DNA of 64,000 nt, from positions 93,667-157,666 of the forward strand of contig CANRDC010000001.1 in assembly GCA_947629245.1 (NCBI GenBank), given 5' to 3'. The position numbers and the translations under genes were made by a program. A model generated the notes under the pieces. It was not told where the DNA came from, did not search any database, and saw only the letters and a program-made list of their open reading frames with translations. This document shows positions 9,664 to 56,721 of the stretch, one piece after another; positions within the stretch are counted from its first letter, which is position 1, and each line of letters starts with the position of its first letter. The DNA comes from an uncultured Oscillospiraceae bacterium (GTDB taxonomy: Bacteria; Bacillota; Clostridia; Oscillospirales; Oscillospiraceae).

Positions 9664-9669
9664 GACTTT

Positions 9670-9704: not shown

Positions 9705-9800
9705 GTATTCAATTATGACGGCATTGAGGAATTAAATCCGTTCATGGGTCATGGACTGCGTAATCACTGTCCGAAGGACAATGTCGTACATGCTCAGACT

Positions 9801-9950: not shown

Positions 9951-10003
9951 CTTTAATGTATGGCAGGTTCTACAATCTTTTAGAAAATGAGGTGTCATAT
10001 AAA

Positions 10004-22328: not shown

Positions 22329-23783
22329 ATGAATTTGCAGGACATTTTCAAGAAGATGAACAGCGGAGAGGTTTCCGCGCATTCCGAGCTGGGAACTCGG
22401 GATGAAGCAAAGCAAAATCGCAACTATGGCACCCGCTTCCGCAAGATGAAGACGGTGACCGGTATCAACGCCCGCGCTCTGGCGATGAAGGACGTTGTTA
22501 TCCCGTTCAACCCCTTCACCGGCAAGGCTGACGAGCACTACAGCAAGAAGACGCCCTTCCGGCCCATTCTCCTTGTCTCTCAGGTGCTCACCGGTATCAA
22601 CGAGGCCTGCGCCCAGAACCCGCAGATGCAGAAGTTCTGGGAGAACGAGCTTGGCATCGTGATGCCCAGCGGCGCAGCTACGATGGAGGAGTACCAAGCG
22701 TTCAAGCGCGCCGGCTTCATCAAGCCCCGTATCATGTCCTACAGCACCGTCGCCATCAACTTCGGCGGCATCATGGGCTTCCCCGACTTCCGGGTGAAGT
22801 ATACCGTGGACCCCAAGGAGCTCAACGAGCAGGGCACCTACGACTTCCAGTCCGCCCCCATCTGGCACAAGGCCGCCGTGTTCTTCAACGCCATGCTGAA
22901 GAAAGAGGCCGACGAGGTTGTCCACAATCTTGAGGCGAACGGCGCCAACAAGGAGACCATTCAGGCCCAGCGTCGGGCGGTGTACTCCAAGTCCCCCGTC
23001 GGCTTTGTTCAGCCGACCAATCTCATTCCCTACCTGTTCTTCCCGCTGAACGAAATCCCCAAGGACCTCGACGCCGAGCACCCCATGGAGCTTGAGGCGC
23101 ACATTCGGTTCTACTCCTTCGTCGACAAGTGGGTGGTCCCCCTCAAGGAGGCCATGTCCAACCCGCTCTATGACGAGGACATGGATTTCTTCGACTTCAC
23201 TATCAAGACACCGTCTTCCACCGACACCAAGAAGAACGGCCAGGTCTACACGGACGAGGACGCCAACGAGCTCTACGCCGCCATGACCATCACCAACACC
23301 GACGGGCGTCTTTCCTTGCACGGCGGCAAGACCTCTGACGGCACCAAGACCGTCAACAACGAGGACGCATTTGCCCCCGTGTTCGCCTGTGCCAAGGAGT
23401 ACTTCCTGTACAGTCAGGAGCAGTCCTCTATGGAGGGTGGCGAGTCCTTCGAGAAAATCATGGCCGCCAGCTCTCGCTTCCGTCCCATCACCCAGGCGCT
23501 CCAGAACTTTCTGCCGGCCTGCAACGACACGTTCACGTCTACCTTCGCCAACACGAAGTATTGCACGGACGATGTGCGTCGCGCCAACGCCGAGTTCTTC
23601 ACAGCCATGAACCCGAAGAACGCCATCGCTGTGGCCGCCGAGGACGACGAGGACCTGGAGGCTGCCGCCGCCGCTCAGCAGAACAGCATCGGTGACATCA
23701 TCGGCGAAGCTACCGGAAAGACCACCGCTCCTGACGACATGTTCGGCGTCACTCCCGATGCTGACCTCGATTTGGCTGAGTAA
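22329..23783 (+). CDS. Abundant (codon-optimised) protein with an acidic C-terminal tail; candidate ssDNA-binding protein, function unproven
   Basis: AAGGAGG RBS. Marked GC3-rich codon bias. The C-terminus AAEDDEDLEAAAAAQQ...APDDMFGVTPDADLDLAE resembles the acidic tails of phage and bacterial SSBs. Flanked by structured spacers and a terminator, and sits immediately upstream of Rad50/Mre11. Confidence 0.3.
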   Translation: MNLQDIFKKMNSGEVSAHSELGTRDEAKQNRNYGTRFRKMKTVTGINARALAMKDVVIPFNPFTGKADEHYSKKTPFRPILLVSQVLTGINEACAQNPQMQKFWENELGIVMPSGAATMEEYQAFKRAGFIKPRIMSYSTVAINFGGIMGFPDFRVKYTVDPKELNEQGTYDFQSAPIWHKAAVFFNAMLKKEADEVVHNLEANGANKETIQAQRRAVYSKSPVGFVQPTNLIPYLFFPLNEIPKDLDAEHPMELEAHIRFYSFVDKWVVPLKEAMSNPLYDEDMDFFDFTIKTPSSTDTKKNGQVYTDEDANELYAAMTITNTDGRLSLHGGKTSDGTKTVNNEDAFAPVFACAKEYFLYSQEQSSMEGGESFEKIMAASSRFRPITQALQNFLPACNDTFTSTFANTKYCTDDVRRANAEFFTAMNPKNAIAVAAEDDEDLEAAAAAQQNSIGDIIGEATGKTTAPDDMFGVTPDADLDLAE

Positions 23784-34026: not shown

Positions 34027-34653
34027 ATGAAGATTGTTCATATCTATGCGAAGAACATAAAGATGTTCGTCGATGCAGTCGAGGATACTGACTGCCGATT
34101 GAACGCTTCGACAGACTTGAACTACTTGATTAGCTCACTACAACGCTATAATGTGCGCGACGTGCTTGGACTTATAATCTTCTCCAATCCAATGACGAAG
34201 AAGTGTTTAAAACTAATGCACGCGTTCGACGACTTGTTCGTCTTTAAGAGGTTGCCTATAATTATCATTTCCGATGATGCTGACGAGCTCAAAGAGGCTG
34301 GGTACTTTAAGGTGAATAACTCAGACCTCTACACTGTTAACTCTGAAGATAATAGCATATCGGATATTGATATCAATAATATATTTACAACGCTTATTGC
34401 ATCGAGTGATGAAGTGTACGACCTCAGCGCCATTCCTGCAGAGAAGAAGCTGAGAGACTACGCGAGAACACATGGCGAAAAGACTGAGCGCCAGATGTCA
34501 CAACAGCTGGTAGAATTATTAAAGTACCTTGGAAGGAGTGAGATAGATGAACATAACAGTTCTGGACAACAGCGCGAGTTCTCAGAAAACTACTCAGGCC
34601 CCTCAGCGGAAGACCTCGCGAAATTCTCGGAGCGCGGGGTTCAAACCCAGTAG
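34027..34653 (+). CDS. Hypothetical protein, possible flavodoxin/receiver-like alpha-beta fold
   Basis: MKIVHIYAK...LGLIIFSN...LPIIIISDD shows an alternating strand-helix pattern. The last 107 nt overlap the next ORF. Confidence 0.4.
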   Translation: MKIVHIYAKNIKMFVDAVEDTDCRLNASTDLNYLISSLQRYNVRDVLGLIIFSNPMTKKCLKLMHAFDDLFVFKRLPIIIISDDADELKEAGYFKVNNSDLYTVNSEDNSISDIDINNIFTTLIASSDEVYDLSAIPAEKKLRDYARTHGEKTERQMSQQLVELLKYLGRSEIDEHNSSGQQREFSENYSGPSAEDLAKFSERGVQTQ

Positions 34654-35425
34654 AACGACAGCCCCGAGTAGTCAGGCCGCCAGGCGTCCTGCTCCTACCA
34701 AGCCTGCTACTGAGGAGACTACGGCAGCTGAGTCTAAGCCGTTGCAGTCTGCTGACGAACTTCTCGAAGCAATGGACACCGCTTCGGGTGTCGCTACACA
34801 AATGGATACAGAGCTGAACGGAGCTCACGAAGATGCTGATAGTGGTATGACCTCGTCTACGACTGAGGACGATGAAGCTACGGAGGCAGAGGAAGCGGCT
34901 CCTGTGCATGCACCTCGTGCGAAGATATCTACGTCTGGACGTCGCAGTGTTAGTGACATTGTAGATGATGGGCCTGACGATGATGAAGACGATGACGATT
35001 TCGAGGACGAAGATGATGACGATGATGATTTTCGTCCTGGAAAAACTATCGGTCGTCGCTCTAATATCCAGCCACCCAAGTCAAGACAGAAGAAAGTTGA
35101 ACCTGCACCGTCTGCTAAGAAGAGACAGCCTGAGCAGAAACCTGCGCAGAAGAAGCAACCTGCACCGCCTCAGAAGAGACAGCCTGCGCCTAAAGCACAG
35201 CCGCCTAAACGTAGGCCTGTAACTGTTGAAGATGAGGACGAAGACGACATGCTTGTCAGCCGTCCTGCAAACGATAAGCCTGGGCGCCCTCAGGTCATTG
35301 TGAAGCAGGAGTCGTTCCTTTCGCAGTTTGTAGTAGTTATTGAGGTTATTGTCGGAGCAGGCCTCGCCTTCTTTGGCGGTACTCAAATCGCTAACATTTT
35401 AATTCAGCGACTTATGAATGGCTGA
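34547..35425 (+). CDS. Disordered Pro/Lys/Gln-rich and poly-acidic protein with a C-terminal TM anchor
   Basis: GGAAGGAG RBS. Contains DDGPDDDEDDDDFEDEDDDDDDF and KKRQPEQKPAQKKQPAPPQKRQPAPKAQPPKRRP. C-terminal TM helix FVVVIEVIVGAGLAFFGG. Confidence 0.55.
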   Translation: MNITVLDNSASSQKTTQAPQRKTSRNSRSAGFKPSRTTAPSSQAARRPAPTKPATEETTAAESKPLQSADELLEAMDTASGVATQMDTELNGAHEDADSGMTSSTTEDDEATEAEEAAPVHAPRAKISTSGRRSVSDIVDDGPDDDEDDDDFEDEDDDDDDFRPGKTIGRRSNIQPPKSRQKKVEPAPSAKKRQPEQKPAQKKQPAPPQKRQPAPKAQPPKRRPVTVEDEDEDDMLVSRPANDKPGRPQVIVKQESFLSQFVVVIEVIVGAGLAFFGGTQIANILIQRLMNG

Positions 35426-35445
35426 CAGGAGGAGGTTAAAGAAAG

Positions 35446-37041
35446 ATGATTTCCCCTGTTGACTTTAAGGTTGCGGACTTCACAGCTAACCTCAGTCCTC
35501 AGATGGCGGCCTCTCTTACGATGGAGGACCTGCATGGTTCAGAGCTGATAGACAATCTGATACTCTTGAAGTTCGTGGACCCTGCGGATATTCAGAGCAT
35601 CTTGCGGACTAAGTACAGTCTTCCCTTCACGATGCTGAAGATAGACCCAACACCTGAGGACTTAAGGCAGTTCGCCGATAAGTATAAAGTCCTGCTTCAG
35701 CGTAATAGGGACACCCTTGTGTGCTATCTCCCTCTTGGACTTCAGCTTGACAACGCCGCACTTGAGGTTGATATCCCGAACTACCGTATAAGGTATATCT
35801 ACATTCCTGACTCGGATTACAACCTCATAAAGACTGGTTTGTCCAGTGATACCATTTCGAGACGAATTGCGGATTTCCGTCCGCTCCTCGTGTTTCGTCG
35901 CTTAGTCATTGACTGCCTGATGCGCGGCGGGACTGACTTACATATGCAGTCACGCTATGTGAATAAGCTTCCTGCGCATTTCATCTTCTACCGCATCAAG
36001 CGTGAAATGACTGCGTCGAACTTTCATATTGACTACGACATGATGCAGAGGGTTGTCAAAGACGCGGTCGGAAAACTCTCTACTGCATCTGCCGCAGATA
36101 TCGACTCGCAGTACGGTGTCACTACTCAGATACCCGACCTGTTCAAAGATGGTACAACTGATGTGCGTTTCCAGTGCATTAGAAATAATGCCGGCCTCAT
36201 GGCGGAGTGCGCCATTCAGAGCATCACGACTACGAATATGAAAGTAGACGAACTCGGCTTTCCTAAGAGTGACGTGGAGCTCATCCGTACTATCTCCAAA
36301 CGTCGCACTGGTTTGACCCTTGTTACTGGTGAGATGCGTTCCGGTAAGAACACCACAATCATGGCGATGGTCAATGAGATTAAGGACGACCCTATCAACA
36401 TCGTGGAGTATTCAAACCCTGTCGAGGTTCGTATGAGCCACAGCCAGCTTGATTATCGTGGTGACATCGACTTGCTTCTGAACCACATGAAGATGGCGAA
36501 GAAGTTCGACATCGACATCGCTATACTCAACGAGATACCTAACTCTGAAGTCGCTTTCGCCGTGCGTGACTTGGTTAACTCCGCCATTGGTGTAACGACC
36601 ACTACGCACATCGACCGCTTGTGGCACGCACCGAATAAGCTGAACGAGTTCTTCGAGAAGGACTATAAGACCATAATCTCTCAGCTTAACGCTATCATCA
36701 ATCATAAGATGTTTAGGCGTTGGTCTGGTCCTGACCTCGTGAAACGTATGCTTTCACCGGAGCAGGGAGACTTCGAGAAGTTCGCGTACAAGGCCGGAGT
36801 GCGCCAGTACTTCGTGCCTAAGGACGCATCTAAGATGAAGTACAGTCTTCAGCCGCTTGTCGAGATACTCGTTATCACCGACGAGATGAAAACCGCCATG
36901 CTTAACTATGATGAGCTTTGGCGTGCTGAGCAGATGCTTCGTTCGCACCTTGAGAGAGCTCACGCTACTATCGAGAATAAGCTCGCAGAGTATATAAATA
37001 GTGGCTTGTGCTCACTCGACGAAATGCGTCTAATCTATTAA
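35446..37041 (+). CDS. GspE/PilB/VirB11-superfamily secretion (traffic) ATPase with a GspE_N-like N-domain and a deviant Walker A
   Basis: LTLVTGEMRSGKNTTIMAMV versus GspE LvTGPTGSGKSTTLya. IVEYSNPVEV versus iEdPvE. FDIDIAILNEIPNSEVAFAVRDLVNSAIGVTTTTH versus dPDvimvGEiRD.ET......AalTGHlVlsTLH. GGAGGAGG RBS. Confidence 0.75.
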   Translation: MISPVDFKVADFTANLSPQMAASLTMEDLHGSELIDNLILLKFVDPADIQSILRTKYSLPFTMLKIDPTPEDLRQFADKYKVLLQRNRDTLVCYLPLGLQLDNAALEVDIPNYRIRYIYIPDSDYNLIKTGLSSDTISRRIADFRPLLVFRRLVIDCLMRGGTDLHMQSRYVNKLPAHFIFYRIKREMTASNFHIDYDMMQRVVKDAVGKLSTASAADIDSQYGVTTQIPDLFKDGTTDVRFQCIRNNAGLMAECAIQSITTTNMKVDELGFPKSDVELIRTISKRRTGLTLVTGEMRSGKNTTIMAMVNEIKDDPINIVEYSNPVEVRMSHSQLDYRGDIDLLLNHMKMAKKFDIDIAILNEIPNSEVAFAVRDLVNSAIGVTTTTHIDRLWHAPNKLNEFFEKDYKTIISQLNAIINHKMFRRWSGPDLVKRMLSPEQGDFEKFAYKAGVRQYFVPKDASKMKYSLQPLVEILVITDEMKTAMLNYDELWRAEQMLRSHLERAHATIENKLAEYINSGLCSLDEMRLIY

Positions 37042-37056
37042 GGAGGTTGTTGTAAA

Positions 37057-37413
37057 GTGCCAAACATAGGTAATAAGAGGCCGCCCACTGCCGTATCAAC
37101 GAAGGGCAAACATACTCCTGAGGCTCAGAGAAGACGCCGCGAGACAGACGACGATGCACCTATCCGCGCCAGCGATATGAGGCGTCAGCAACAGCAACGT
37201 CCTCCTAAACCCACCGTGCCTAAGGCCGACCCGTTCTCCGATGGTATTGTGTCCATTAGATTAAAGGACGCCACGGTTGTTCCTCGTGTCGGTGGAGACG
37301 AAGTAACGCTCCTTCGTGAGTTCCTGCAATACTATACGGAGGAAAATGTCCATGTAACTAACATCATGACGAGGAATTCCTTCATGAAGAAGGCGGGAGG
37401 TAGACTATTATGA
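37057..37413 (+). CDS. Small protein with a highly basic, disordered N-terminus (118 aa)
   Basis: GTG start after AAGGAGG. Contains KRPPTAVSTKGKHTPEAQRRRRE...RRQQQQRPPKP. Confidence 0.45.
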   Translation: MPNIGNKRPPTAVSTKGKHTPEAQRRRRETDDDAPIRASDMRRQQQQRPPKPTVPKADPFSDGIVSIRLKDATVVPRVGGDEVTLLREFLQYYTEENVHVTNIMTRNSFMKKAGGRLL

Positions 37414-37910
37414 TAAAGAAGCTTATCCTCCTCGTACTCGCCATCGGTGCGGCTTATGGCGCCTTGCTTTCTCCGTACAGCTACAAGGCGAACGAGAATG
37501 TCCCACAGGAAATCAAACAGGTGCAGATGGAGCTCAATGACGCTGAGGTTAACTCAGTTAAAGCTCGTGAGGAGATGCATAACGCTAAAGCGACGTTTGA
37601 TAACAACCACAGTTTTGACGTTGCGTACAATGACCTCTCTAAGCTCTCTAAGCTCTTGAGCATAACAGCTGGTATCTCGGTGTCTGGCATGTCTGCATAC
37701 GACCCTGTGAGTCAGATGGAGATAGGGCCCTGTGACCCTGAGAGTGGTGCTGAGCTTCCTGCGGCTATCCTCATGAAGTTGGTTGTTGACGATATCAACG
37801 GCGGGCTTCGTGTGGTTAATCGACTTGAGCTTCCGGTAATTTCCCTCACAGTGAATGAGCCCGGCAACATTGATGTTATCTTCTTGACTGGAGGTGACAT
37901 CGATGCCTAA
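37410..37910 (+). CDS. Bitopic membrane protein, PilO/PilN-like topology (N-terminal TM, coiled coil, small globular domain)
   Basis: TM helix KKLILLVLAIGAAYGALL, then coiled coil QVQMELNDAEVNSVKAREEMHNAKATF. GGGAGG RBS. Sits next to the GspE-like ATPase. Confidence 0.35.
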   Translation: MIKKLILLVLAIGAAYGALLSPYSYKANENVPQEIKQVQMELNDAEVNSVKAREEMHNAKATFDNNHSFDVAYNDLSKLSKLLSITAGISVSGMSAYDPVSQMEIGPCDPESGAELPAAILMKLVVDDINGGLRVVNRLELPVISLTVNEPGNIDVIFLTGGDIDA

Positions 37911-39126
37911 TGCTCTGTTTGTCGACGTCTCTAATCTGAACACACTGTTTAAGGTTGGAGACAGGTTTGTGCTTGGGACCAGTTACCTCTCCTGCCCTGA
38001 CCGTATCGCCATTGATGCGCAGGCACTTGGGGCTTCTTACGATATTTATTTGTCGATGCTTCCGAGGCCGAAGGGTGAGGGCGACGGTGTCATATCCGCC
38101 TTGTCTATCGGCGGTGTTCCGTTCACCGTTCTTAAGGAGGAAGTCGATAAAGTTATCAAACTTGTCGAGAATACTCCTGGCGTCGGTACTGTATACATTT
38201 GCAATGCCCTCGCTAACTTCGCCATCAACGCACGTGTGCCGAAGTTTGAGTCCGTCATAAACTATGGTAGTCGAGTCGCCCTGTTCTCGGTCAAAGATAA
38301 AATGCTGGAGACGCTGAAGGTCTATGACTCTCAGTCCGCGCTCTTTGAGGATAAAGGCGAGGAGTTTACTTGCTATGGCGACATCGACCTTCTCGACGTT
38401 GACGCCATGAAGTCCCAGTACAGCGAACTCTCCGAGTGCAGTAAGTCTGCACTTGTTGCACTGGCTCCGCTGATTGCCTCATATCACTCTCCGTACAATG
38501 TTGATATCGAGACTGTCAAAGCGCAGCTTGGGCTTGGAGAGTACGCCGGAACTGTTAAGGAAAAGCCTGAGCCTGAAGAAGAAAGAAGACCCGCACCTGT
38601 CTACACGCCGCCTGTTGATGAAGAAGAGGACGACGATGATGATTTCGAGGAGCGTGAAGCGCCCCGTAGGGTTGTTGTACGTAAGGCGAGACTTAGTGTC
38701 GTCAATGTACTTCTGACTATAATCATTATCGCTGGGTGCGCCTGGACTGGCATCGGCTACGGACTGAGTAAACATGCTGGAGACGCCGACGCTATCCGAG
38801 CTGAGCTTACACCCTATCAGACTCAGACACATCACGATAACGTCGTGGCTGAGATGTGGACAAATGCTTACGGGTTCACGCAGGAAGTGCTCGACCTCGT
38901 TGACGTGGTGAATGGCTCTGAACTCGGCGCTCACATCTATGCAATCAGCGCTACAACTGACAGCATAGTTATCGAGTGCAATGCTGCTAACTCAGATATA
39001 ATGACACAGCTTGTCGGAGTAATTACTGGGAACGGCTACTCTAATCCAACTCTGAATGAGCTTGATGCTGTTCAGTCCGCTGACGGAACGACCAGCTACA
39101 ATTATCGCCTGACAGTGGCGAAATAA
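37903..39126 (+). CDS. Bitopic membrane protein: cytoplasmic domain, acidic linker, TM, PilN/PilO-like C-terminal domain
   Basis: GGAGG RBS before ATG 37903. Linker VDEEEDDDDDFEEREAPRR, then TM helix LSVVNVLLTIIIIAGCAWTGIGYGL. The C-terminus AHIYAISATTDSIVIECNAANSDIMTQLVGVITGNGYSNPTLNEL...YNYRLTV fits the PilN/PilO ferredoxin-like pattern. Confidence 0.35.
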   Translation: MPNALFVDVSNLNTLFKVGDRFVLGTSYLSCPDRIAIDAQALGASYDIYLSMLPRPKGEGDGVISALSIGGVPFTVLKEEVDKVIKLVENTPGVGTVYICNALANFAINARVPKFESVINYGSRVALFSVKDKMLETLKVYDSQSALFEDKGEEFTCYGDIDLLDVDAMKSQYSELSECSKSALVALAPLIASYHSPYNVDIETVKAQLGLGEYAGTVKEKPEPEEERRPAPVYTPPVDEEEDDDDDFEEREAPRRVVVRKARLSVVNVLLTIIIIAGCAWTGIGYGLSKHAGDADAIRAELTPYQTQTHHDNVVAEMWTNAYGFTQEVLDLVDVVNGSELGAHIYAISATTDSIVIECNAANSDIMTQLVGVITGNGYSNPTLNELDAVQSADGTTSYNYRLTVAK

Positions 39127-39148: not shown

Positions 39149-39895
39149 ATGAGCGAAGAAATCATCAACGGAAAGGTGAAACCTATTTCGATGGACAGTG
39201 CAAATGCAAAGTTTGTGAAGTTCAATCGGGATATGGTCACCGACTACAACACCCTGTGCTCCTACATCAACAGCCTCATTTTTGGACGCGAGGCTGTTGG
39301 TGGCGACAGCCTGACTGTTCACGGCTACACCACTCATAAGGTGGTGTACGCTGAGGTCTCCGGCTACACTCCTGAGACTGTGGCCGAAGTCGTGAAGAGC
39401 TATGAGGCCGCCGGGTTCAGCACGGTTCAGTTCGGCATCGATGCGGACTCTGAGTCCAACATCCACTTCCTCGGCGTCATGTGGGACGAGAACATCAAGG
39501 TATCAACCACCGAGCTCGACACCCTGATAAAGTTCTTCGAGGACGAAGCGGAAGGCGACGACGCCTTGGCGGATACTGCCGAGACGATGGACGGCATCGC
39601 TGAGGTCGACTCTACGGAGAAGCCTGACCTCATGGAGCATATGGTCGCTGGGACCACGGAGGAGTTCCTCACCAGGCGTGCGGGCGAAGGTGACATTCAC
39701 CCTGAGCCCGCCATGCATTCCGACTTCGAGACGGATAATATGGAGCCCGTGGTAACTGGCTTCAAGCCTGCTGAGGTCGCGATGCTTGATATACCTGGTG
39801 ATGACTTCGACCCCGACATGCCGTCCGGCGTGCCCGACTTCGGGAGTATGACAGCTGAAATCCCTACCCGCAGCGACGAGGCTTACCTCGGCTAA
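39149..39895 (+). CDS. Acidic hypothetical protein (248 aa), codon-optimised
   Basis: AAGGAG RBS. The C-terminal half is very D/E-rich (EDEAEGDDALADTAETMDG...DDFDPDMPSGVPDF). Confidence 0.55.
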   Translation: MSEEIINGKVKPISMDSANAKFVKFNRDMVTDYNTLCSYINSLIFGREAVGGDSLTVHGYTTHKVVYAEVSGYTPETVAEVVKSYEAAGFSTVQFGIDADSESNIHFLGVMWDENIKVSTTELDTLIKFFEDEAEGDDALADTAETMDGIAEVDSTEKPDLMEHMVAGTTEEFLTRRAGEGDIHPEPAMHSDFETDNMEPVVTGFKPAEVAMLDIPGDDFDPDMPSGVPDFGSMTAEIPTRSDEAYLG

Positions 39896-40166
39896 TCCTT
39901 GAAGCTTGGATTTCACTGAGGCGTAAACGATGTCTGTGAACGCTTTAACCACTCGGTACTGGGTCTGTTTGAAGCGGTCAGGTCCTCCCAAAATCTAACG
40001 AGAGATTGAGCTGTGGGATAGACACTCGTTGACTCCGACTGCATTATTGAATTGTCGATATGCTGTCGCTTGGCGTCATGCAGTGCGCCTTTTCAATCTA
40101 CGCCATCGTTGACGGTGGTGAGACACTACTGGTGGCGTAGCCATTGACAAACCGTATAAATATAGA

Positions 40167-40191
40167 GGGGTGGATAGTTATTATCCACCCC
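40167..40191 (+). other. Perfect 10-bp hairpin in the 5' region of ORF 40222
   Basis: GGGGTGGATA-gttat-TATCCACCCC, 30 nt upstream of the ATG. A TTGACA box lies at 40144-40149. Confidence 0.4.
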
Positions 40192-40221
40192 TTCGTCGTC
40201 TGATACAAAAGGAGATTTAGA

Positions 40222-40683
40222 ATGGATAACCCTATACTCGCTAAAGCAACCATTTCCGCATATGGTATGAGTTTCAGCGGTGATCTCGATATCCCATGCG
40301 AAGATATCCTCCTCAGACATCCGAGAGATGTACATACTTGGCATCAGTCAGACTTTCTTAATATAGCACTCGCATGTGCTTCCTTTGTACTTAATGTGCA
40401 AAGCGACCCAGAGCTTGCTGTAAATGCGCGCCCTATTGTAGTTACCATCGACTACACAGAAGAAGTCAATGATGCCGCGTTTGAGAAGTTTATTATCAAT
40501 GCTGTTGGTTCTGGTATCGACGTGCGTTCTATTGACTTCGTTACGCATACCGTCGCTATCAACATCGGTCTCAAGACCATGAGCGATAATACCTTAACTT
40601 CTGTGATAAACCGCAGTCTCTCACGCTTCGCAGACAAATATGAGGGAAATAAGACTATTCCGGAGACAATAACAATCAGGTAA
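40222..40683 (+). CDS. Hypothetical protein (153 aa)
   Basis: AAGGAG 7 nt upstream. No motif recognised. Confidence 0.55.
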   Translation: MDNPILAKATISAYGMSFSGDLDIPCEDILLRHPRDVHTWHQSDFLNIALACASFVLNVQSDPELAVNARPIVVTIDYTEEVNDAAFEKFIINAVGSGIDVRSIDFVTHTVAINIGLKTMSDNTLTSVINRSLSRFADKYEGNKTIPETITIR

Positions 40684-40708
40684 GAAGATAAGAAAGAGGT
40701 ACAGAGAT

Positions 40709-41269
40709 ATGTCAGCTCCACTTTTAGCGACGAAGCGCTTTGACCTTATGCCCTTGCTCGTCAGAAACGCTCCTCAGATGTATTCCAGATGGTTAACCGA
40801 TAAGGAGGTCGCCAGGTTTTGTACCTGGACCCCAAATCGCAGTATGGAGCAGGCAGTCTCCTATGTTGAGTCAGAAGTCGAAAGAGACAAACGTGACGAC
40901 TACTTCGCATGGGGAATGTACTTTGACTCATATAAGAAGAACTCCTACCACCCGCAAATCTTTGGGCAGATTACACTCGCCGTGAACACAAAGACTTCAA
41001 CTGGTTCTGTCGAGTTTGTAGTCATGCGCCCTGAGTGGAACAAGGGCTACGCAACCGAGGCTGTTGCTAAGGTTGTTGAGTTTGCTCTGCATAATCTCGC
41101 ACTCCGACGTGTCATTGCGACATGCAATGTGGAGTGCATAGCGGCACAGCATGTGCTTGAGAACGTTGGCATGAAGAGACTCTACGAGTTTCACATGCCT
41201 TGGAAGACAAAAGAAGGGTGCAACATGGTGCGCTATCAGGTTACGCGCGAGCAGTATTTTGGCGAATAG
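40709..41269 (+). CDS. GNAT-family N-acetyltransferase (RimJ/RimL-like)
   Basis: VVMRPEWNKGYATEAVAKVVEFALHNL is the typical GNAT motif A of this subfamily (..GkGyatEA......a). The length of 186 aa fits. Confidence 0.75.
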   Translation: MSAPLLATKRFDLMPLLVRNAPQMYSRWLTDKEVARFCTWTPNRSMEQAVSYVESEVERDKRDDYFAWGMYFDSYKKNSYHPQIFGQITLAVNTKTSTGSVEFVVMRPEWNKGYATEAVAKVVEFALHNLALRRVIATCNVECIAAQHVLENVGMKRLYEFHMPWKTKEGCNMVRYQVTREQYFGE

Positions 41270-41323: not shown

Positions 41324-42610
41324 ATGTTAGGAGAAAGCAGGATTAAGAAGGGGTCCGGCATCGTTATCAAGGAGGGTAACTCACTGTCCAGCAGTGTTAA
41401 CCTCATTGCTGGTATCGACGCTGGTTCCACCGAGACTCGCGTATGCTTGGCTGACGCTACCGACGCCGAGCTCTTTGCGAACGAGTCGAGAGTGAAGGAG
41501 GCCCTGCAGGCTTTGGGGAAAGTCTACACCATTCCTTCCACCTATGCAACTACAATGGACAACAGAGAGATAATCCCTGCGAGTCAGAATATCGAGGACA
41601 ACTATGACAGTACCATCATGATGGTGCGTGTGTCTGCTGAGCACCCTATGGTCACGCGGCACCGTGTTCTCCGTGGGAAGAAGATGCGCGACGCGACTGG
41701 TCTGGTCGCCAGGTATCTCGACAGCAGTACAAACAAATCGGATAACCCGATTTTCTACATAAACATTATCGACGCCCTTGGCTATGCCATCATGCATAAG
41801 TACAACGGTGCCATTCCGAGAACGGTCAACGTTCAGATGGTCTTGTCAGTCAGGCCGAAGGAGCAGACCTCTATCTGCCGTGACCGCATGATTGAAAACA
41901 TCATCGGTCAGTTCATCTTCTCGTGGAAGAACACAAGCATCACGCTAAACATTCAGAGCATCGACTTCACAACGGAGCCGGAGGCACAGGTGTTCGGCAC
42001 TACAACTATCTGCGACCTGAAATACACGGAGAACCCCGACACCGGCGAAAGCTTCAAGGAGCTGGCCGACAGGCTTTCCAACTCTCGTACATACATTCAC
42101 ATCGAGGGTGGTGGCTCCTCTATCGGCGTCGAGGTGGTTCGTGACGGTCAGCTGGTCGACAGCTGTTCGAGCACGTTCCAGCTCGGCGGGAACTACCTCT
42201 GCCAGATTTTCATCGACAGGGTTCGTGAAAGCATCGGAAGGACGGTGTCTGTCGACGCCGCGAATGAAGCCCTCGTTACTACGCTCCTGCGTGATGGGCG
42301 TGATACCATTGATGTCAACGGCATCGTGGCGGACTGCAAGAACCAGTTGGCTCTCGACATTGTCGAGCGCCTGCGCCACAATGTGATTGACCTCAATCAC
42401 TGGCTGTCCTTGCAGGACGTTGAGTTCATAACACTCGGCGGAAGGCTGTTCCGTCAGGATAAGAGAGGCAACACAATCAGCACCTATCTGAGGGAGTATA
42501 TACAGCAGATTTCTCCTAACACCGACGTAATCGTCTTGACGGAGAACTGCATACCTCAGGGCAACCTCGTTATTGGTTTGAACGCCGATAACGAGAGTGC
42601 CACAGCGTAA
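41324..42610 (+). CDS. Actin-like ATPase (ParM/Alp-type segregation protein; a PilM/FtsA-like role is not excluded)
   Basis: Phosphate-1 LIAGIDAGSTETRV, phosphate-2 YIHIEGGGSSIGVEV and adenosine motif FITLGGRLF occur in the order typical of the ASKHA/actin fold. Confidence 0.65.
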   Translation: MLGESRIKKGSGIVIKEGNSLSSSVNLIAGIDAGSTETRVCLADATDAELFANESRVKEALQALGKVYTIPSTYATTMDNREIIPASQNIEDNYDSTIMMVRVSAEHPMVTRHRVLRGKKMRDATGLVARYLDSSTNKSDNPIFYINIIDALGYAIMHKYNGAIPRTVNVQMVLSVRPKEQTSICRDRMIENIIGQFIFSWKNTSITLNIQSIDFTTEPEAQVFGTTTICDLKYTENPDTGESFKELADRLSNSRTYIHIEGGGSSIGVEVVRDGQLVDSCSSTFQLGGNYLCQIFIDRVRESIGRTVSVDAANEALVTTLLRDGRDTIDVNGIVADCKNQLALDIVERLRHNVIDLNHWLSLQDVEFITLGGRLFRQDKRGNTISTYLREYIQQISPNTDVIVLTENCIPQGNLVIGLNADNESATA

Positions 42611-46082: not shown

Positions 46083-46460
46083 ATGGGCACTAAATCTGAG
46101 TATGCCCCTGTATTCGGGTTGTATCTAAACCCTGCTGACCTACGCATTTTGTATGATAATACTGCGTTGAGCACAGTCCCAGCGTCTCAGTATTTTGAAA
46201 TGCAAGCGCGTGGAGAAGGCATCGGAGAGTATCTTCCTATCCCTGATGGCACAACGCATTGGAAGTCCGCCTGGTATAAGAACTTCTTAGTTAATGCCAG
46301 CGTAGAGGGCGAGGACCTCTATGTACTGGCTAATGACGCGAGGTTTGGACTGACGTACTTTCATTATGTGTTTGCTAAAGATAAAAGACTCTATAGGTAT
46401 TGCAATGATATGCCTTATAGGGTCGTAATACTCGAAAGGAGAAAAATACCATGCCCGTAA
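46083..46460 (+). CDS. Hypothetical protein (125 aa)
   Basis: ORF in the operon that overlaps the next gene by 10 nt. No obvious RBS. Confidence 0.45.
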   Translation: MGTKSEYAPVFGLYLNPADLRILYDNTALSTVPASQYFEMQARGEGIGEYLPIPDGTTHWKSAWYKNFLVNASVEGEDLYVLANDARFGLTYFHYVFAKDKRLYRYCNDMPYRVVILERRKIPCP

Positions 46461-47827
46461 CCTCTAATCTCGCGAACGTTGCCAACAATGCCAGAATGGT
46501 TGCTCCTATGGACCTCGGCGGCAGCGCTCCCAGCATCCCCGGTGACTTCACCGGTGGCATCACCACCGCGACCGGCGACCTCTCCGCCCGTATTCAGAAG
46601 GCTGTTCAGAAGTACGGCTATCTGTACGGCTATATCATGAGGTACGCTCCCCGCATCGAGTTCGCCATGCTCAAGAAGAAGAAGGACAAGGGTACCGCTG
46701 AGTACGAAATCGGCGTCCGTCAGACCCGTCCCTCCAGCATCGAGCGCGTCCTCGTGACCCTGCCCGCCATGGCTATTTGCAACGGCGAGCACACCATCGC
46801 CTCCCCTGAGGAAATCCAGCAGTGCGCCGTTGACTACAACAGGCCCGTGACTGACGTCGTGAACCTGGTGTGGGAGAAGGACGTTGCTTGCGCCTACCTG
46901 CTGGCCCTCGGCGGCATCATTCCGGAGTACAAGCCCAACGTGGTCGAGGGCGCCAGCGAGCAGTGGCCCGCTCAGCTCCTTGAGTCCGGTTCTCCCGATG
47001 TCTCCTATGTGAAGGTCACGGCTCGCAAGAAGCCCAACGCCGCCACCGGCATCACCATGAACCTGAAGTGCACCACTCGGCGTACCCTCCTCACTCAGCA
47101 CAACTTCGTCGCCCTCCGCGCCTATGAGCACATTCCTCTGAAGCCCAAGGCCGACGCCGCCTTCATGTATGAGCTGAACGAGTCTGCTTTCGGCACCTGG
47201 AGGAACCGCCGTCTCAACCGTGAGAGCACTGTCTCCATGCTTGAGGACGCCATCAACCAGTGCCCGAGCCAGATTGCTCGTACCACCTACACCTTCACCG
47301 ACAAGAACGGCGAGACTGTCGAGAAGAACGACGGCATCATGTCCTGCTTCACTCTCGACAAGAACGCGAAGGACAATGCCCTGAAGCTCTCCGGCGCTCA
47401 TGCTGAGATGGTCCAGGCCATGACCGCGACCTCCGCGAAGTTCGTGCCCTGGTACACCGCCGCTACTCAGAAGAAGGACGAGAAGACCTCCTATGAGAGC
47501 GCGACCCGCATCGTCAAGCGCGAGTATCGTGAGACCAAGAGCGGCGACAAGAAGCTCCGCACCATTCCTCTGAACTGGCGTGACAACAAGAACGCCGAGG
47601 AGTTCGCTCCTTACGTCTCCTTCGCCGCCAACGCTCAGAGCGCGGGCTATGTGACCGCGGCTCAGCTCGACTCCCTGGCCACCGCCTCCAACCGCGGCAG
47701 CAAGCAGAAGACCAACCTGCTCGCTGACAAGGATATCAAGGCCGGCTTCACCGCCATGCTCCGCGACGACACCTTCAAGAGCCGTCTGGACGAGGCCCGT
47801 CGGGAGTTCGCCGTTCAGGGTGTGTAA
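46451..47827 (+). CDS. Highly expressed (codon-optimised) protein of unknown function (458 aa); possibly the main structural or DNA-associated protein of the element
   Basis: AAGGAG RBS. Very strong GC3 codon bias that produces a full-length antisense shadow ORF. Followed by two strong hairpins. Confidence 0.6.
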   Translation: MPVTSNLANVANNARMVAPMDLGGSAPSIPGDFTGGITTATGDLSARIQKAVQKYGYLYGYIMRYAPRIEFAMLKKKKDKGTAEYEIGVRQTRPSSIERVLVTLPAMAICNGEHTIASPEEIQQCAVDYNRPVTDVVNLVWEKDVACAYLLALGGIIPEYKPNVVEGASEQWPAQLLESGSPDVSYVKVTARKKPNAATGITMNLKCTTRRTLLTQHNFVALRAYEHIPLKPKADAAFMYELNESAFGTWRNRRLNRESTVSMLEDAINQCPSQIARTTYTFTDKNGETVEKNDGIMSCFTLDKNAKDNALKLSGAHAEMVQAMTATSAKFVPWYTAATQKKDEKTSYESATRIVKREYRETKSGDKKLRTIPLNWRDNKNAEEFAPYVSFAANAQSAGYVTAAQLDSLATASNRGSKQKTNLLADKDIKAGFTAMLRDDTFKSRLDEARREFAVQGV

Positions 47828-55590: not shown

Positions 55591-56721
55591 ATGACTTCTA
55601 CTGCAAAGTCTAAGTCGAGAGTATCTGCCTGGCTTCCTGGGTTTATCACGGTTCTTGCCGTGATTGTTATCGCAGGTGCCGCCACGTTTGCGAGCGTTGG
55701 TGCAAGGGCCGATAACTTCACCGACATCTTCTATACGAACAGCTTCCGCGGCGCCTTCAGCTGGATTGCAAAGCTGAACTGGGTCGGCACTATTGTGCAG
55801 GCTGTTATCTCAATCTTCTCCCTGCTCGGCGTCGCCTTGCTGACTATTCGTATTATGACCTCACTCCTCTACCTTTCCGCTAAGGGGATGTGGGAGGAAG
55901 TGCATGACCTTAAGAGCCAGGGCTCCCAGCAGGAGAAAGACTTCCTCGGACTGATGGGCATGGCTAAGACCTGGGCCTCCGGCTCTAAGGGTACTGGTCT
56001 TGATGCCATTATTGTCGCCGTGCTTATGCTCCTTCCCGATGTTAAGAGCTACTCTGACTTCAGTGATAAGGCTGGCGATAAATTCTCCAATGATATTTCT
56101 GCGTCGCAGTATATCTTGAAGATTGCTCTACCTACTGTTATGACGGTGTTCTTCTTCGCCATGGGTTTCAACGGTACCTTGTTCCAGGCTCTCGCTATTA
56201 CGGTCGATGCTCTCGGCACTGTGGCTGATAAGGTTATCTCTATTAACTACTCTGGCATCATTGAGGACCTTGTTAACACTGGTACTGGTTATAAGTTCGT
56301 CTACGATATCGACGGCACTGAACTTGGACAGTTGAAACAGTCAATTGCCGTTGATGTCTATGGTCAGGTCATTCGCCAGATTAAAGATGCTGATGCAAAT
56401 CAGCTCTATGATATGGGTCAGAAGGTCCAGACCTTCGTTGACCAGATAGACTACAGTACGCTAAGGGATGCAGCCGGTACATCTGCGCAGATGAAGACCA
56501 ATCTCGACGGTGAGGACCAAGATGAATTTGTTCAGTACTTCGGATATGAAGTTGTTGTATCTGGAACTGATATGGGTGATAAGGCTACCCTCAGCTGGGC
56601 GATGTCTGAGTTCATGCCAGAGACAGGTGTCGGAGCAGTTAACACGGATAGAACATTCTATCTTGGTGTTACACTCAAACAGAATAAGGAGTACAACGGT
56701 GGCTTTGTAAGCCGCCGGTGA
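55591..56721 (+). CDS. Polytopic membrane protein (376 aa) with a soluble C-terminal domain
   Basis: AAGGAGG RBS. At least four hydrophobic helices (FITVLAVIVIAGAATFA, VGTIVQAVISIFSLLGVALLTI, LDAIIVAVLMLL, LPTVMTVFFFAMGF). Confidence 0.6.
   Translation: MTSTAKSKSRVSAWLPGFITVLAVIVIAGAATFASVGARADNFTDIFYTNSFRGAFSWIAKLNWVGTIVQAVISIFSLLGVALLTIRIMTSLLYLSAKGMWEEVHDLKSQGSQQEKDFLGLMGMAKTWASGSKGTGLDAIIVAVLMLLPDVKSYSDFSDKAGDKFSNDISASQYILKIALPTVMTVFFFAMGFNGTLFQALAITVDALGTVADKVISINYSGIIEDLVNTGTGYKFVYDIDGTELGQLKQSIAVDVYGQVIRQIKDADANQLYDMGQKVQTFVDQIDYSTLRDAAGTSAQMKTNLDGEDQDEFVQYFGYEVVVSGTDMGDKATLSWAMSEFMPETGVGAVNTDRTFYLGVTLKQNKEYNGGFVSRR

What the first reader, a model, noticed from the sequence alone, without database searches (positions are those of the whole stretch)
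34027..39126. Orphan type IV pilus/T2SS-like assembly module: GspE/PilB ATPase with a deviant P-loop plus PilN/O-like proteins, but no pilin, platform or peptidase
ORF 35446-37041 is clearly a GspE/PilB/VirB11-superfamily ATPase, with a GspE_N-like head, Asp box, Walker B region and His box. Its Walker A reads GEMRSGKNT instead of GPTGSGK[ST]T. The conserved fourth Gly is Arg, and the Mg-coordinating Ser/Thr after Lys is Asn.

It is flanked by:
- a receiver-like small protein
- a disordered, acidic, Pro-rich TM-anchored protein
- a very basic 118-aa protein
- two bitopic proteins whose topology and C-terminal sequences resemble PilO and PilN, the second fused to a ~220-aa cytoplasmic domain

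I find no PilC/GspF-type polytopic platform, no class III (G|FTLIE) pilin and no prepilin peptidase in the window. This could be a re-purposed traffic-ATPase machine, for example for DNA or protein export together with the downstream envelope module.
Basis: partly seen in the sequence, partly recalled or inferred. Interest (0 to 1): 0.7.

Follow-up and report, generated by a model that had tools for sequence, protein, structure and literature searches.

The report
Pilin-less GspE–GspL-type ATPase module
A very large, uncatalogued mobile element from gut Clostridia carries a conserved operon with the motor ATPase and membrane anchor of a pilus/type II secretion machine, but none of the parts that build a pilus, so the motor has probably been re-used for another, still unknown membrane task.

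Summary
ORF 35446-37041 is a GspE/PilB-clade traffic ATPase: Pfam T2SSE E=2e-13, and hhalign 99.6% to E. coli GspE. Its Walker A reads GEMRSGKNTT, and the Asn is present in 101 of 104 family clusters. The Asp box (YSNPVE) and Walker B (LNEIPN) are also altered, and the zinc-binding tetracysteine motif is lost. The 410-aa neighbour has the GspL architecture, equivalent to PilM+PilN in one chain: an actin-like cytoplasmic domain, one TM helix, and a PilN/GspL-type ectodomain. The support is an AlphaFold model, a Foldseek match to XcpY, and a profile link to a genuine PilN. The 166-aa protein fits GspM/PilO only by topology and position. "Receiver-like" and "GspE_N-like head" are unsupported. No platform, pilin or prepilin peptidase was found in the window or in 17 related loci; the pilin scan passed a positive control. 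The six-gene operon is strictly syntenic in every relative examined. These are contigs of roughly 100-470 kb, absent from IMG/VR and without close relatives in INPHARED or PLSDB. The operon sits inside the element's replication/repair block. Best reading: a re-purposed, membrane-anchored E-L-(M) motor subcomplex that is a core function of a new element family. Its output is unknown. New variant of a known kind; interest about 0.55.

The parts
34027..34653 (+). 208-aa conserved acidic protein ('up2'), first gene of the module.
   Evidence: Orthologues with the MK(I/L)V... N-terminus sit in the DHH-to-ATPase interval in all loci compared. No Pfam, PHROG, NCBIfam or PDB-profile match. No conserved Asp at receiver positions (read from alignment A4).
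34547..35425 (+). 292-aa disordered, charged, Pro-rich protein, tail-anchored by a C-terminal TM helix (residues 257-275, nt 35315-35371). It overlaps up2 by 107 nt.
   Evidence: TM scan. pI 4.86, 9.6% Pro and a good RBS at the ATG at 34547. The same architecture but very variable length (36-378 aa) in L005, L007, L008, L011 and L012; the gene at this position in L010 and L013 is different.
35446..37041 (+). 531-aa GspE/PilB-clade traffic ATPase: an uncharacterised N-terminal head (residues 1-149), then the N2E-like and CTE domains.
   Evidence: Pfam T2SSE E=2.2e-13. PDB profile search: EpsE 2.6e-31, ahead of PilF, PilB, PilT, DotB and BfpD. hhalign to E. coli GspE 99.6%. NCBIfam scores lie far below every equivalog cut-off.
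36328..36357 (+). Deviant Walker A, GEMRSGKNTT (residues 295-304). The canonical fourth Gly is Arg, and the Mg-coordinating Ser/Thr after Lys is Asn.
   Evidence: Alignment A1. Census: 101 of 104 clusters have GK-N, 2 have GKT and 1 has GKS. Aligned to GspE GPTGSGKSTT. Coordinates.
36406..36426 (+). Altered Asp box, EYSNPVE (residues 321-327); canonical is VEDPVE. P325 and E327 are invariant.
   Evidence: Distant member P0097 keeps YEDPVE and P0102 keeps YSDPVE.
36508..36543 (+). Altered Walker B, DIDIAILNEIPN (residues 355-366); canonical is D..V.MVGEIRD. The catalytic-position Glu363 is invariant.
36586..36615 (+). His box, IGVTTTTHID (residues 381-390); H388 is invariant.
36715..36735 (+). 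Site of the lost first CxxC of the GspE/PilB zinc-binding subdomain (RRWSGPD, residues 424-430).
   Evidence: Two CxxC pairs are kept only in distant family members within P0092-P0104. The site aligns to GspE CPQC...GCPHC.
37057..37413 (+). 118-aa basic protein (pI 10.3) with no TM helix. It has a disordered N-terminal half and a conserved C-terminal ...KK.GG.LL motif.
   Evidence: No family match. Present in all relatives at 88-135 aa; the C-terminal motif is absent in L005 and L010.
37410..37910 (+). 166-aa bitopic protein: TM helix at residues 2-20, a helical segment, then a C-terminal domain. It occupies the GspM/PilO position and is translationally coupled on both sides.
   Evidence: TM scan. 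Gene overlaps of 4 and 17 nt. Orthologues of 152-169 aa in most loci and 252 aa in L010. Fold untested: AF2 pLDDT 37. No PDB, Pfam or hhalign link.
37894..39126 (+). 410-aa ORF (probable start ATG 37903, 407 aa): a GspL-type protein, i.e. PilM-like and PilN-like parts in one chain.
   Evidence: AF2 with a 17-sequence alignment, mean pLDDT 77. Foldseek PDB search. A closed family of 53 clusters.
37894..38553 (+). Cytoplasmic actin-like (ASKHA-fold) domain, residues 1-220. It lacks the DxG and GGG phosphate-binding motifs.
   Evidence: Foldseek: MreB, actin and Arp at E=5e-4 to 8e-3. The conserved N-terminal motif is D-x-S-N-L-N rather than DxG[ST] (alignment A2).
38689..38763 (+). Single TM helix of the GspL-type protein (residues ~266-290), continuing into a long helix that ends at residue 341.
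38917..39123 (+). Extracytoplasmic beta-beta-alpha-beta-beta domain of PilN / GspL-periplasmic type (residues 342-410).
   Evidence: Foldseek: 6ghu_A, the XcpY (GspL) periplasmic domain, TM-score 0.66 normalised to the target, 20% identity. The family profile finds P0198 at E=1.2e-4 in 1.84 billion proteins. P0198 is a true Pfam PilN, 26.3 bits against GA 22.8. hhalign gives 74%, E=2.9e-5, on the globular domain.
41324..42610 (+). 428-aa ParM/actin-like ATPase with intact DAGSTETR and EGGGSS motifs. It follows the GspL-type gene in most relatives; whether it belongs to the module is uncertain.
   Evidence: phrog_691 partition protein E=1.8e-6. Synteny. No detectable paralogy with the actin-like domain of the 410-aa protein.

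Best explanation
Window 34027-39126 is one tightly packed six-gene operon. It is a core module of an uncharacterised family of large elements from animal-gut Clostridia metagenomes.

Shown:
- The motor is a GspE/PilB-clade hexameric traffic ATPase.
- Its nucleotide site has been remodelled in a conserved, family-wide way: Walker A GK-N, Asp box SN, Walker B NEIPN, and loss of the Zn-binding tetracysteine.
- The 407/410-aa protein has the GspL architecture: a truncated actin-like cytoplasmic domain, one TM helix, a long helix, and a PilN/GspL-type ectodomain.
- No platform, pilin or prepilin peptidase is encoded nearby.

Inferred from T2SS/T4P biology:
- The actin-like domain recruits the ATPase to the inner face of the membrane.
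- The TM helix, long helix and ectodomain pair with the translationally coupled 166-aa bitopic protein, which sits in the GspM/PilO position.
- Nucleotide-driven domain movements of the ATPase are passed on to membrane partners.

My commitment for the output: this is not a pilus-building machine. It is a re-purposed, element-specific membrane motor or switch that also uses the three family-specific proteins (208 aa, tail-anchored 292 aa, basic 118 aa). It serves a membrane-associated step in the propagation of the element's DNA, either transfer or egress across the envelope, or membrane anchoring of replicating DNA. This last step is speculation, guided only by gene context.
For: ATPase identity and clade.

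Conserved remodelling of the active site, with E327, E363 and H388 invariant.

Directional divergence from a PilB-like ancestor: the distant clade keeps GKS/GKT, ED and CxxC, and scores 69-76 bits against a clostridial PilB, versus 34 bits for the window.

GspL architecture of the 410-aa protein: AF2 pLDDT 77; actin/MreB and XcpY periplasmic-domain matches; PilN link by profile and by hhalign.

E. coli GspL is 387 aa and GspM 153 aa, against 407 and 166 aa here.

Strict synteny of up2, ATPase, the 88-135-aa gene, the small bitopic gene (152-252 aa) and the ~390-430-aa gene in L001-L003 and L005-L013; the gene at the tail-anchored position differs in L010 and L013.

Translational coupling and strong RBSs.

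No pilin, platform or peptidase in 352 kb of fetched element sequence (overlapping loci counted more than once); the pilin scan passed a positive control.

The module lies between UvrD/DHH and ParM-like/FEN/clamp-loader genes.

Established knowledge that GspL anchors GspE, that PilM-PilN corresponds to GspL, and that GspL pairs with GspM: PMC4471445.
Against: - Only about 72 kb of a ~229-kb element could be read, so missing parts could lie elsewhere.
- The 166-aa protein has no demonstrated PilO/GspM fold.
- The ATPase head shows no similarity to the GspL-binding N1 domain of GspE, so the E-L contact is unproven.
- The actin-like domain matches generic actin/MreB better than GspL or PilM in the listed Foldseek hits.
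- The Asn in Walker A, the SN Asp box and the loss of zinc (reported essential for EpsE; title and abstract of PMC5061722, seen) could mean weak or no ATPase activity.
- No platform-less member of this ATPase clade is known to me apart from T4SS-associated ones.
- Nothing directly ties the module to DNA handling.
Confidence: 0.45

Rival explanations
1. Host hijack. The element supplies only a motor (ATPase) and alignment proteins (GspL-like, GspM-position). These dock onto the host's own type IV pilus or competence platform, pilins and peptidase, so that pilus assembly comes under the element's control, for example for contact, spread or DNA movement.
For: The retained parts are the ones that contact the platform and the pilins in canonical systems (PMC4471445). 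Gut Clostridia do carry canonical PilB-PilT-PilC-pilin loci (L022). No platform or pilin lies in or near the module.
Against: The ATPase and its partners are extremely diverged from host-type proteins: 22% identity and 34-54 bits to a clostridial PilB, and no detectable similarity to HofM/N/O or GspL/M. The active site is remodelled. Three further family-specific proteins travel with the module. No host is identified.
Confidence: 0.2
2. An ordinary, complete type IV filament system whose platform, pilin and peptidase genes lie elsewhere on the ~229-kb element, outside the 64-kb window.
For: About 70% of the element was not readable with the tools at hand. T4P genes are often scattered in several loci.
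Against: In canonical systems pilB/pilC, gspE/gspF and pilMNO cluster together (L018, L021, L022). None appears within +/-10 kb of the ATPase in any relative examined, nor in the window plus 7.5 kb. The catalytic site and zinc motif are non-canonical.
Confidence: 0.15
3. Catalytically impaired pseudo-ATPase complex. The module acts as a decoy, scaffold or inhibitor, for example blocking host pili for superinfection exclusion or sequestering host PilN/PilO/pilins, rather than as a motor.
For: Walker A Ser/Thr is replaced by Asn, Asp-box ED by SN, GEIRD by NEIPN, and the zinc site is lost. Zinc coordination is reported as essential for EpsE (title and abstract of PMC5061722).
Against: K301, E327, E363, H388 and T303/T304 are invariant across members as distant as 25% identity. 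This looks like purifying selection on a working nucleotide site. A core, six-gene, translationally coupled operon is a heavy investment for an inhibitor.
Confidence: 0.1
4. VirB11-like ATPase of a novel Gram-positive conjugation (type IV secretion) apparatus, working with the FtsK/SpoIIIE-like protein and the giant membrane proteins of the element.
For: Orphan GspE-type ATPases do occur inside conjugation regions (the P. veronii plasmid, MPF_F). The window encodes an FtsK/SpoIIIE-like motor, giant membrane proteins and a UvrD-type helicase next to the module.
Against: The ATPase belongs with GspE/PilB: N2E+CTE, an ancestral tetracysteine, EpsE at 2.6e-31 versus DotB at 1.9e-5, and no VirB11 hit. 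TraJ scores only E=0.0035. No VirB4, relaxase or VirB6 family was detected among the window ORFs scanned. The FtsK-like gene is 22 kb away.
Confidence: 0.1

Closest known systems
[quoted passage not shown] Vibrio EpsE/L/M, Pseudomonas XcpR/Y/Z)
   Same: The ATPase is closest to GspE over N2E+CTE. A ~400-aa bitopic partner has an actin-like cytoplasmic domain and a GspL-type ectodomain. It sits next to a ~160-aa bitopic partner. Sizes match E. coli GspL (387 aa) and GspM (153 aa).
   Different: No GspF, pseudopilins, GspO, GspC or secretin. The gene order is M-position then L, not L then M. Walker A, Asp box and Walker B are altered and zinc is lost. No Pfam T2SSL or T2SSM match. The host is probably a monoderm Firmicute, where classical T2SS does not exist. 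The module is carried on a mobile element.
PilB-PilM-PilN-PilO of type IVa pili
   Same: The same functional logic, and PilM+PilN corresponds to GspL (PMC4471445). The C-terminal domain of the 410-aa protein is linked by sequence profile to a genuine PilN.
   Different: Here PilM-like and PilN-like parts are fused. The actin-like domain lacks ATP-binding motifs, whereas PilM binds ATP. No PilC, PilA, PilD or PilT is present. A canonical clostridial locus (L022) looks entirely different.
BfpD-BfpC of the type IVb bundle-forming pilus
   Same: A traffic ATPase paired with a bitopic protein whose cytoplasmic domain is GspL/PilM-like (PMC4471445). BfpD is hit weakly by the ATPase profile (3.3e-5).
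   Different: The Bfp system has a platform (BfpE), pilins and a peptidase. There is no sequence relationship beyond the superfamily.
Orphan T2SSE-family ATPases on mobile elements (VirB11/DotB/TraJ-type; the GspE-annotated gene in the MPF_F region of the P. veronii plasmid)
   Same: A traffic ATPase on a large mobile element without a cognate platform or pilins.
   Different: Those work with a T4SS (VirB4 and others) and have no GspL/GspM-type partners. The present ATPase is GspE/PilB-clade, not VirB11-clade.
ComGA of the Gram-positive competence pilus
   Same: A Firmicute T2SSE ATPase linked to DNA movement. NCBIfam ComGA gives E=4.5e-12.
   Different: The score of 45 bits is far below the cut-off of 300. 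ComGA is shorter and works with ComGB, ComGC-GG and ComC, none of which is present here.

Membership tests
T2SSE / GspE-PilB traffic ATPase | Pfam PF00437 above the gathering score | tested here: met
   50.1 bits against 24.9, E=2.2e-13.
T2SSE / GspE-PilB traffic ATPase | N2E + CTE two-domain core alignable with GspE/PilB | tested here: met
   EpsE E=2.6e-31 over profile positions 150-527. hhalign to E. coli GspE 99.6% over 367 columns.
T2SSE / GspE-PilB traffic ATPase | Canonical Walker A G-x-x-G-x-G-K-[ST] | tested here: not met
   The motif reads GEMRSGKNT. Asn follows Lys in 101 of 104 clusters.
T2SSE / GspE-PilB traffic ATPase | Asp box, Walker B Glu and His box | tested here: inconclusive
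   E327, E363 and H388 are invariant, but ED has become SN and GEIRD has become NEIPN. Activity cannot be judged from sequence.
T2SSE / GspE-PilB traffic ATPase | Tetracysteine zinc-binding subdomain of assembly ATPases | tested here: not met
   Absent in the window's clade. Two CxxC pairs occur only in distant members within P0092-P0104.
T2SSE / GspE-PilB traffic ATPase | Membership of a named equivalog (GspE, PilB, ComGA, PilT, TfpB) | tested here: not met
   The best score is 58 bits against a cut-off of 630.
T2SSE / GspE-PilB traffic ATPase | N-terminal N1E / T2SSE_N domain | tested here: inconclusive
   No Pfam match. MshE N-domain at E=1.2 only. hhalign against GspE residues 1-120 gives 0.1%. 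No structure model was made.
GspL (= PilM + PilN) | Cytoplasmic actin-like (ASKHA) domain of ~230 aa | tested here: met
   AF2 pLDDT is mostly 75-94 over residues 1-210. Foldseek hits MreB, actin and Arp. GspL and PilM themselves are not among the 50 hits listed.
GspL (= PilM + PilN) | A single TM helix followed by a ferredoxin-like ectodomain of GspL-periplasmic / PilN type | tested here: met
   6ghu_A XcpY, TM-score 0.66 normalised to the target. A PilN link by profile and by hhalign.
GspL (= PilM + PilN) | Match to Pfam T2SSL, GspL_C, PilM_2 or PilN, or sequence similarity to E. coli GspL | tested here: not met
   No Pfam or NCBIfam family. hhalign against E. coli GspL gives 0.4%.
GspL (= PilM + PilN) | Binds the N-terminal domain of its ATPase | not testable with these tools
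   This needs a multimer model or an experiment.
GspM / PilO | Bitopic N-in topology with a helical stalk, encoded next to the L/N-type partner | tested here: met
   TM helix at residues 2-20. Overlapping genes. Conserved position.
GspM / PilO | Ferredoxin-like ectodomain, or a sequence match to PilO, T2SSM, GspM or HofO | tested here: inconclusive
   The single-sequence AF2 model is unusable, pLDDT 37. No PDB, Pfam or hhalign signal.
Type IV filament system (T4P, T2SS, Com, Tad) | Polytopic platform protein (PilC/GspF/TadB) | tested here: not met
   No T2SSF match among the ORFs scanned. phmmer with three platform proteins against 1,972 ORF segments from 352 kb finds nothing. Valid only for the sequence that could be read.
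Type IV filament system (T4P, T2SS, Com, Tad) | Class III signal-peptide pilins | tested here: not met
   Strict and permissive motif scans give no hit on the coding strand of the window, and the strict scan finds none in 17 related loci. The positive control (the L022 pilin) was found.
Type IV filament system (T4P, T2SS, Com, Tad) | Prepilin peptidase (A24) | tested here: not met
   No Pfam hit among the ORFs scanned. phmmer with GspO finds nothing. No suitable polytopic ORF.
Type IV secretion VirB11-type ATPase | Closest similarity to VirB11/DotB/TraJ, and an accompanying VirB4 | tested here: not met
   DotB at 1.9e-5 versus GspE at 2.6e-31. TraJ at E=0.0035. No VirB4-like Pfam among the window ORFs scanned.

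The most novel reading that the evidence does not exclude
The module is a platform-less, pilin-less machine in which a remodelled GspE/PilB-type ATPase, a GspL-type anchor and family-specific membrane proteins form a new kind of envelope device. That device moves the DNA, or particles, of a previously unrecognised class of ~200-kb elements or viruses of gut Clostridia. It would be a third functional offshoot of the traffic-ATPase machinery, beside pili/T2SS and T4SS.
Probability: 0.2. Interest if true: 0.85.

Novelty: new variant of a known kind. Interest (0 to 1): 0.55.

Why it matters
All well-studied GspE/PilB-clade ATPases work through a PilC/GspF platform to polymerise pilins. A deeply conserved E-L-(M) trio that has lost these partners would show that the ATPase/anchor subcomplex can be an autonomous evolutionary and functional unit. 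Here the trio travels as a core operon of a large uncultured element.

The family-wide substitutions at Mg-coordinating positions (GK-N, SN, NEIPN, loss of zinc) are a natural experiment on the catalytic mechanism of traffic ATPases.

The carrier is also of interest. It is a prevalent family on contigs of roughly 100-470 kb. It is absent from IMG/VR and has no close relatives in INPHARED or PLSDB. It has its own replisome, PspA, an FtsK-like motor, a ParM-like actin and giant membrane proteins. This looks like unexplored gut mobile-element or viral dark matter, and this module is one of its few interpretable handles.

Tried and rejected
Structure and homology of the small proteins
- An AF2 model of the 166-aa protein from a single sequence failed (pLDDT 37). 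Only one homologue was retrievable by the permitted route.
- Profiles of the 166-aa family found nothing against the PDB, the 410-aa family (TM region only), E. coli GspM and HofO or Pfam per member.
- The ATPase head gave nothing significant against the PDB, Pfam or the GspE N1 domain.
- The 208-aa 'receiver-like' protein has no homology by any library. I dropped the receiver label.
- hhalign of the 410-aa family against E. coli GspL was negative. The link to the family rests on structure and on PilN.
- I tested whether the actin-like domain of the 410-aa protein is a paralogue of the neighbouring ParM-like gene. It is not detectably so.

Identity of the element
- No DNA or protein relatives turned up in INPHARED.
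- IMG/VR has none.
- PLSDB has only distant GspE genes.
- GTDB has two MAG contigs.
- There is a weak terminase-like PHROG hit just outside the window, with no PDB or phage support.
- There are no tRNAs, and four literature searches for the element family found no description of it.
- The single 'phage' tblastn hit (MT836798) turned out to be a mislabelled bacterial T4P locus. I used it as a positive control.

Other
- I rejected the VirB11/T4SS reading on profile ranking.
- The promoter and terminator scan was not above chance.
- I could not walk along the element beyond about 7.5 kb, because look-ups are restricted to window proteins.

Full report
**What is there**

The finding spans six co-directional genes on the + strand:
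- 34027-34653 (208 aa)
- 34547-35425 (292 aa)
- 35446-37041 (531 aa)
- 37057-37413 (118 aa)
- 37410-37910 (166 aa)
- 37894-39126 (410 aa)

The 410-aa ORF probably starts at the ATG at 37903, giving 407 aa. Every gene has a GGAGG-type Shine-Dalgarno sequence. Gaps are -107 to +20 nt, so the set looks like one Firmicutes-style operon. The first sizeable intergenic gap (39896-40221) lies one gene further downstream and contains an 11-bp-stem hairpin.

**The ATPase**

The 531-aa protein passes Pfam T2SSE (50.1 bits against a cut-off of 24.9). A profile of 27 family members hits Vibrio EpsE/GspE best (E=2.6e-31, over N2E+CTE). PilF, PilB, PilT, DotB and BfpD follow. hhalign against E. coli GspE gives 99.6%. 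It therefore belongs to the assembly-ATPase (GspE/PilB) clade, not the VirB11 clade. It still scores far below every NCBIfam equivalog cut-off (58 against 630 bits).

In 104 clusters of homologues the residue after GK is Asn in 101, Thr in 2 and Ser in 1.

- The Asp box is YSNPVE; canonical is VEDPVE.
- Walker B is LNEIPN; canonical is VGEIRD.
- Both CxxC pairs of the zinc-binding subdomain are gone.
- K301, T303, T304, P325, E327, E363 and H388 remain invariant down to 25% identity.

The most distant family members keep GKS/GKT, ED or SD, and the tetracysteine. They score 69-76 bits against a clostridial PilB, compared with 34 bits for the window's protein. The picture is a PilB-like ancestor whose nucleotide site was progressively and coherently remodelled, not random decay.

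The N-terminal 150 residues have no significant match. The MshE N-domain scores E=1.2, and there is nothing against GspE N1.

**The neighbours**

*The 410-aa protein.* This was modelled from a 17-sequence alignment (mean pLDDT 77). The model has four parts:
- an alpha/beta domain (residues 1-220);
- a disordered acidic, Pro-rich linker;
- a TM helix running into a long helix (residues 269-341);
- a beta-beta-alpha-beta-beta domain (residues 347-409).

Foldseek matches the first domain to MreB, actin and Arp. It matches the last domain to the periplasmic domain of XcpY, the Pseudomonas GspL (6ghu, TM-score 0.66 normalised to the target, 20% identity).

Independent sequence evidence agrees. The family profile was searched against 1.84 billion representative proteins. 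It found only 53 clusters, nearly all with the same ~400-aa architecture. At the edge it found P0198 (E=1.2e-4). P0198 is a genuine PilN (Pfam 26.3 bits against GA 22.8). hhalign places the similarity on the globular domain (74%, E=2.9e-5).

An actin-like domain, a TM helix and a PilN-type domain together make up the GspL architecture. The PilM-PilN complex is regarded as the orthologue of GspL, and GspL is what anchors GspE to the membrane (PMC4471445). The actin-like domain lacks the DxG and GGG phosphate loops, as expected for a GspL-type rather than a PilM-type domain. That comparison rests on my own knowledge of EpsL.

*The 166-aa protein.* It has an N-terminal TM helix. It overlaps both neighbouring genes and is conserved in position and mostly in size. 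Its fold could not be established. 'PilO/GspM-like' is therefore a positional inference only.

*The other three proteins.*
- The 118-aa protein is basic (pI 10.3) and has a conserved C-terminal KK.GG.LL motif.
- The 292-aa protein is a tail-anchored, disordered protein of very variable length.
- The 208-aa protein is conserved but matches nothing, and it lacks receiver-type aspartates.

**What is missing**

- Pfam, NCBIfam and PHROG scans of the window's larger ORFs found no T2SSF, pilin or A24 peptidase. The precomputed Pfam calls on overlapping contigs found none either.
- A class III signal-peptide scan, strict and permissive, found no candidate on the coding strand of the window, and the strict scan found none in 17 related loci. 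It did find the pilin of a canonical clostridial locus used as a positive control.
- phmmer queries were run against all 1,972 ORF segments of 352 kb of fetched element sequence (overlapping loci counted more than once). The queries were clostridial PilC, E. coli and Janthinobacterium GspF, GspO, GspG, the clostridial pilin, GspL/M and HofM/N/O. None hit; only PilB hit, and it hit the ATPases.

**Context**

The ATPase family (104 clusters at 90% identity) lies on metagenomic contigs whose larger examples run from roughly 100 to 470 kb. The window's own protein is on a 228,842-bp contig. The family:
- is absent from IMG/VR;
- has no DNA or meaningful protein relatives in INPHARED;
- has only distant GspE relatives in PLSDB;
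- appears in GTDB only on two MAG contigs, binned as uncultured Clostridia and Lachnobacterium.

In every locus examined the order is UvrD, DHH, a small variable interval, ATPase, an 88-135-aa gene, a small bitopic gene (152-252 aa), then a ~390-430-aa gene. A ParM-like actin usually follows, then a 5'-3' exonuclease and a clamp-loader AAA+ protein. Occasional accessory genes are inserted.

The window also encodes:
- a Toprim primase and an SbcCD-like pair;
- an FtsK/SpoIIIE-like motor;
- PspA/IM30;
- two giant membrane proteins.

A weak terminase-like hit lies about 5 kb beyond the window end. I could not decide whether the element is a jumbo phage, a plasmid or something else.

**How it most likely works**

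Shown:
- a GspE/PilB-clade ATPase with a conserved but remodelled active site;
- a GspL-type partner;
- a co-translated small bitopic partner;
- strict co-inheritance;
- no platform, pilins or peptidase in reach.

Inferred by analogy with GspE-GspL-GspM and PilB-PilM-PilN-PilO (PMC4471445): the actin-like domain docks the ATPase hexamer at the membrane, the L-type and M-position proteins pair across and beyond the membrane, and nucleotide-driven movements are transmitted to membrane partners.

Speculative: because the pilus-building parts are absent and three family-specific proteins travel with the trio, I favour an element-specific, non-pilus output. That output would be tied to a membrane step of the element's DNA propagation (confidence 0.45).

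Rivals:
- docking onto host PilC and pilins (0.2);
- a complete system split across the unread part of the element (0.15);
- an impaired pseudo-ATPase acting as a scaffold or inhibitor (0.1);
- a VirB11-like role in a novel conjugation system (0.1).

**Comparison and novelty**

The module works like, and descends from, the E-L-M / PilB-M-N-O subcomplex. It fails the membership test for a type IV filament system: platform, pilin and peptidase were tested and not met within the readable sequence. It also fails every named ATPase equivalog.

Orphan GspE-type ATPases on mobile elements are not unprecedented. One sits in an F-type transfer region of a P. veronii plasmid. Those lack L/M-type partners.

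I rate this a new variant of a known kind. The carrier element family itself may be the more novel object.

**Limits**

- About 70% of the element could not be read.
- The 166-aa fold, the E-L contact and ATPase activity are untested.
- The host and the element type are unknown.

Noticed in passing
whole window; loci L001-L017: The window belongs to a prevalent, uncatalogued family of elements on contigs whose larger examples run from ~100 to 470 kb. All genes seen are on one strand. The element has its own replisome and repair set: primase, a weak polymerase-like hit, a clamp loader, FEN, UvrD, DHH and SbcCD-like proteins. The family is absent from IMG/VR, has no close relatives in INPHARED or PLSDB, and was binned only with Clostridia and Lachnobacterium MAGs. 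Phage, plasmid or other: undecided.
   Followed up: partly
window 22329-23783 and 46451-47827: Two Ala-rich genes (484 and 458 aa) have third-position GC of 0.84 and 0.82, in a window of ~0.48 GC. This creates long spurious antisense ORFs. The codon bias suggests very highly expressed, perhaps structural, proteins. No Pfam, PHROG or PDB match, and the two are not similar to each other.
   Followed up: partly
window 49816-55575, 55591-56721, 57125-63361: Two giant proteins (1919 and 2078 aa) with an N-terminal signal or TM helix and several C-terminal TM helices flank a 376-aa three-TM protein. None has a Pfam or PHROG match. No link to the ATPase operon was found.
   Followed up: partly
window 5309-5995: A clear PspA/IM30 (ESCRT-III-type membrane-remodelling) homologue, E=7.7e-40, on the element.
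   Followed up: no
window 11096-12802: An FtsK/SpoIIIE-like motor domain (Pfam E=2.4e-10; phrog_1358 E=8.7e-24; weak EssC similarity). It has no TM segment, and the match begins at residue 1, as if the N-terminal part were missing or encoded separately.
   Followed up: no
window 41324-42610: A ParM/actin-like ATPase with intact nucleotide-binding motifs. It follows the GspL-type gene in most relatives, immediately in L005, L008 and L013. In the window it is separated by a three-gene accessory insertion (39149-41269, which includes a GNAT acetyltransferase).
   Followed up: partly
window 40166-40192: A perfect 11-bp-stem hairpin (AGGGGTGGATA...TATCCACCCCT) lies in the only large intergenic gap near the module. 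It may be a terminator or a regulatory site.
   Followed up: no
L016:16530-18506 (about 5 kb beyond the window end): A 658-aa protein with a weak match to the terminase large subunit (phrog_2666, E=1.2e-4, a 49-residue stretch). No PDB or phage tblastn support. This is the only hint of a virion-type gene.
   Followed up: partly
L010:3059-8261; L013:4327-9236: The interval between DHH and the ATPase is a hot spot for accessory genes in relatives: NrdD and a YkuD L,D-transpeptidase in L010, and dUTPase plus PD-(D/E)XK/AAA proteins in L013. L011 and L012 carry 2-4 extra genes between the ATPase and the small basic protein.
   Followed up: no
L022 (GenBank MT836798.1): A record deposited as 'Bacteriophage sp.' from human faeces is in fact a bacterial fragment. 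It carries sporulation sigma-factor genes and a canonical PilB-PilT-PilC-pilin locus.
   Followed up: yes
L020 (P. veronii plasmid LT599585.1, locus 8896-10536): An orphan GspE-annotated ATPase is embedded in an F-type conjugative transfer region. This is a precedent for lone traffic ATPases on mobile elements.
   Followed up: no
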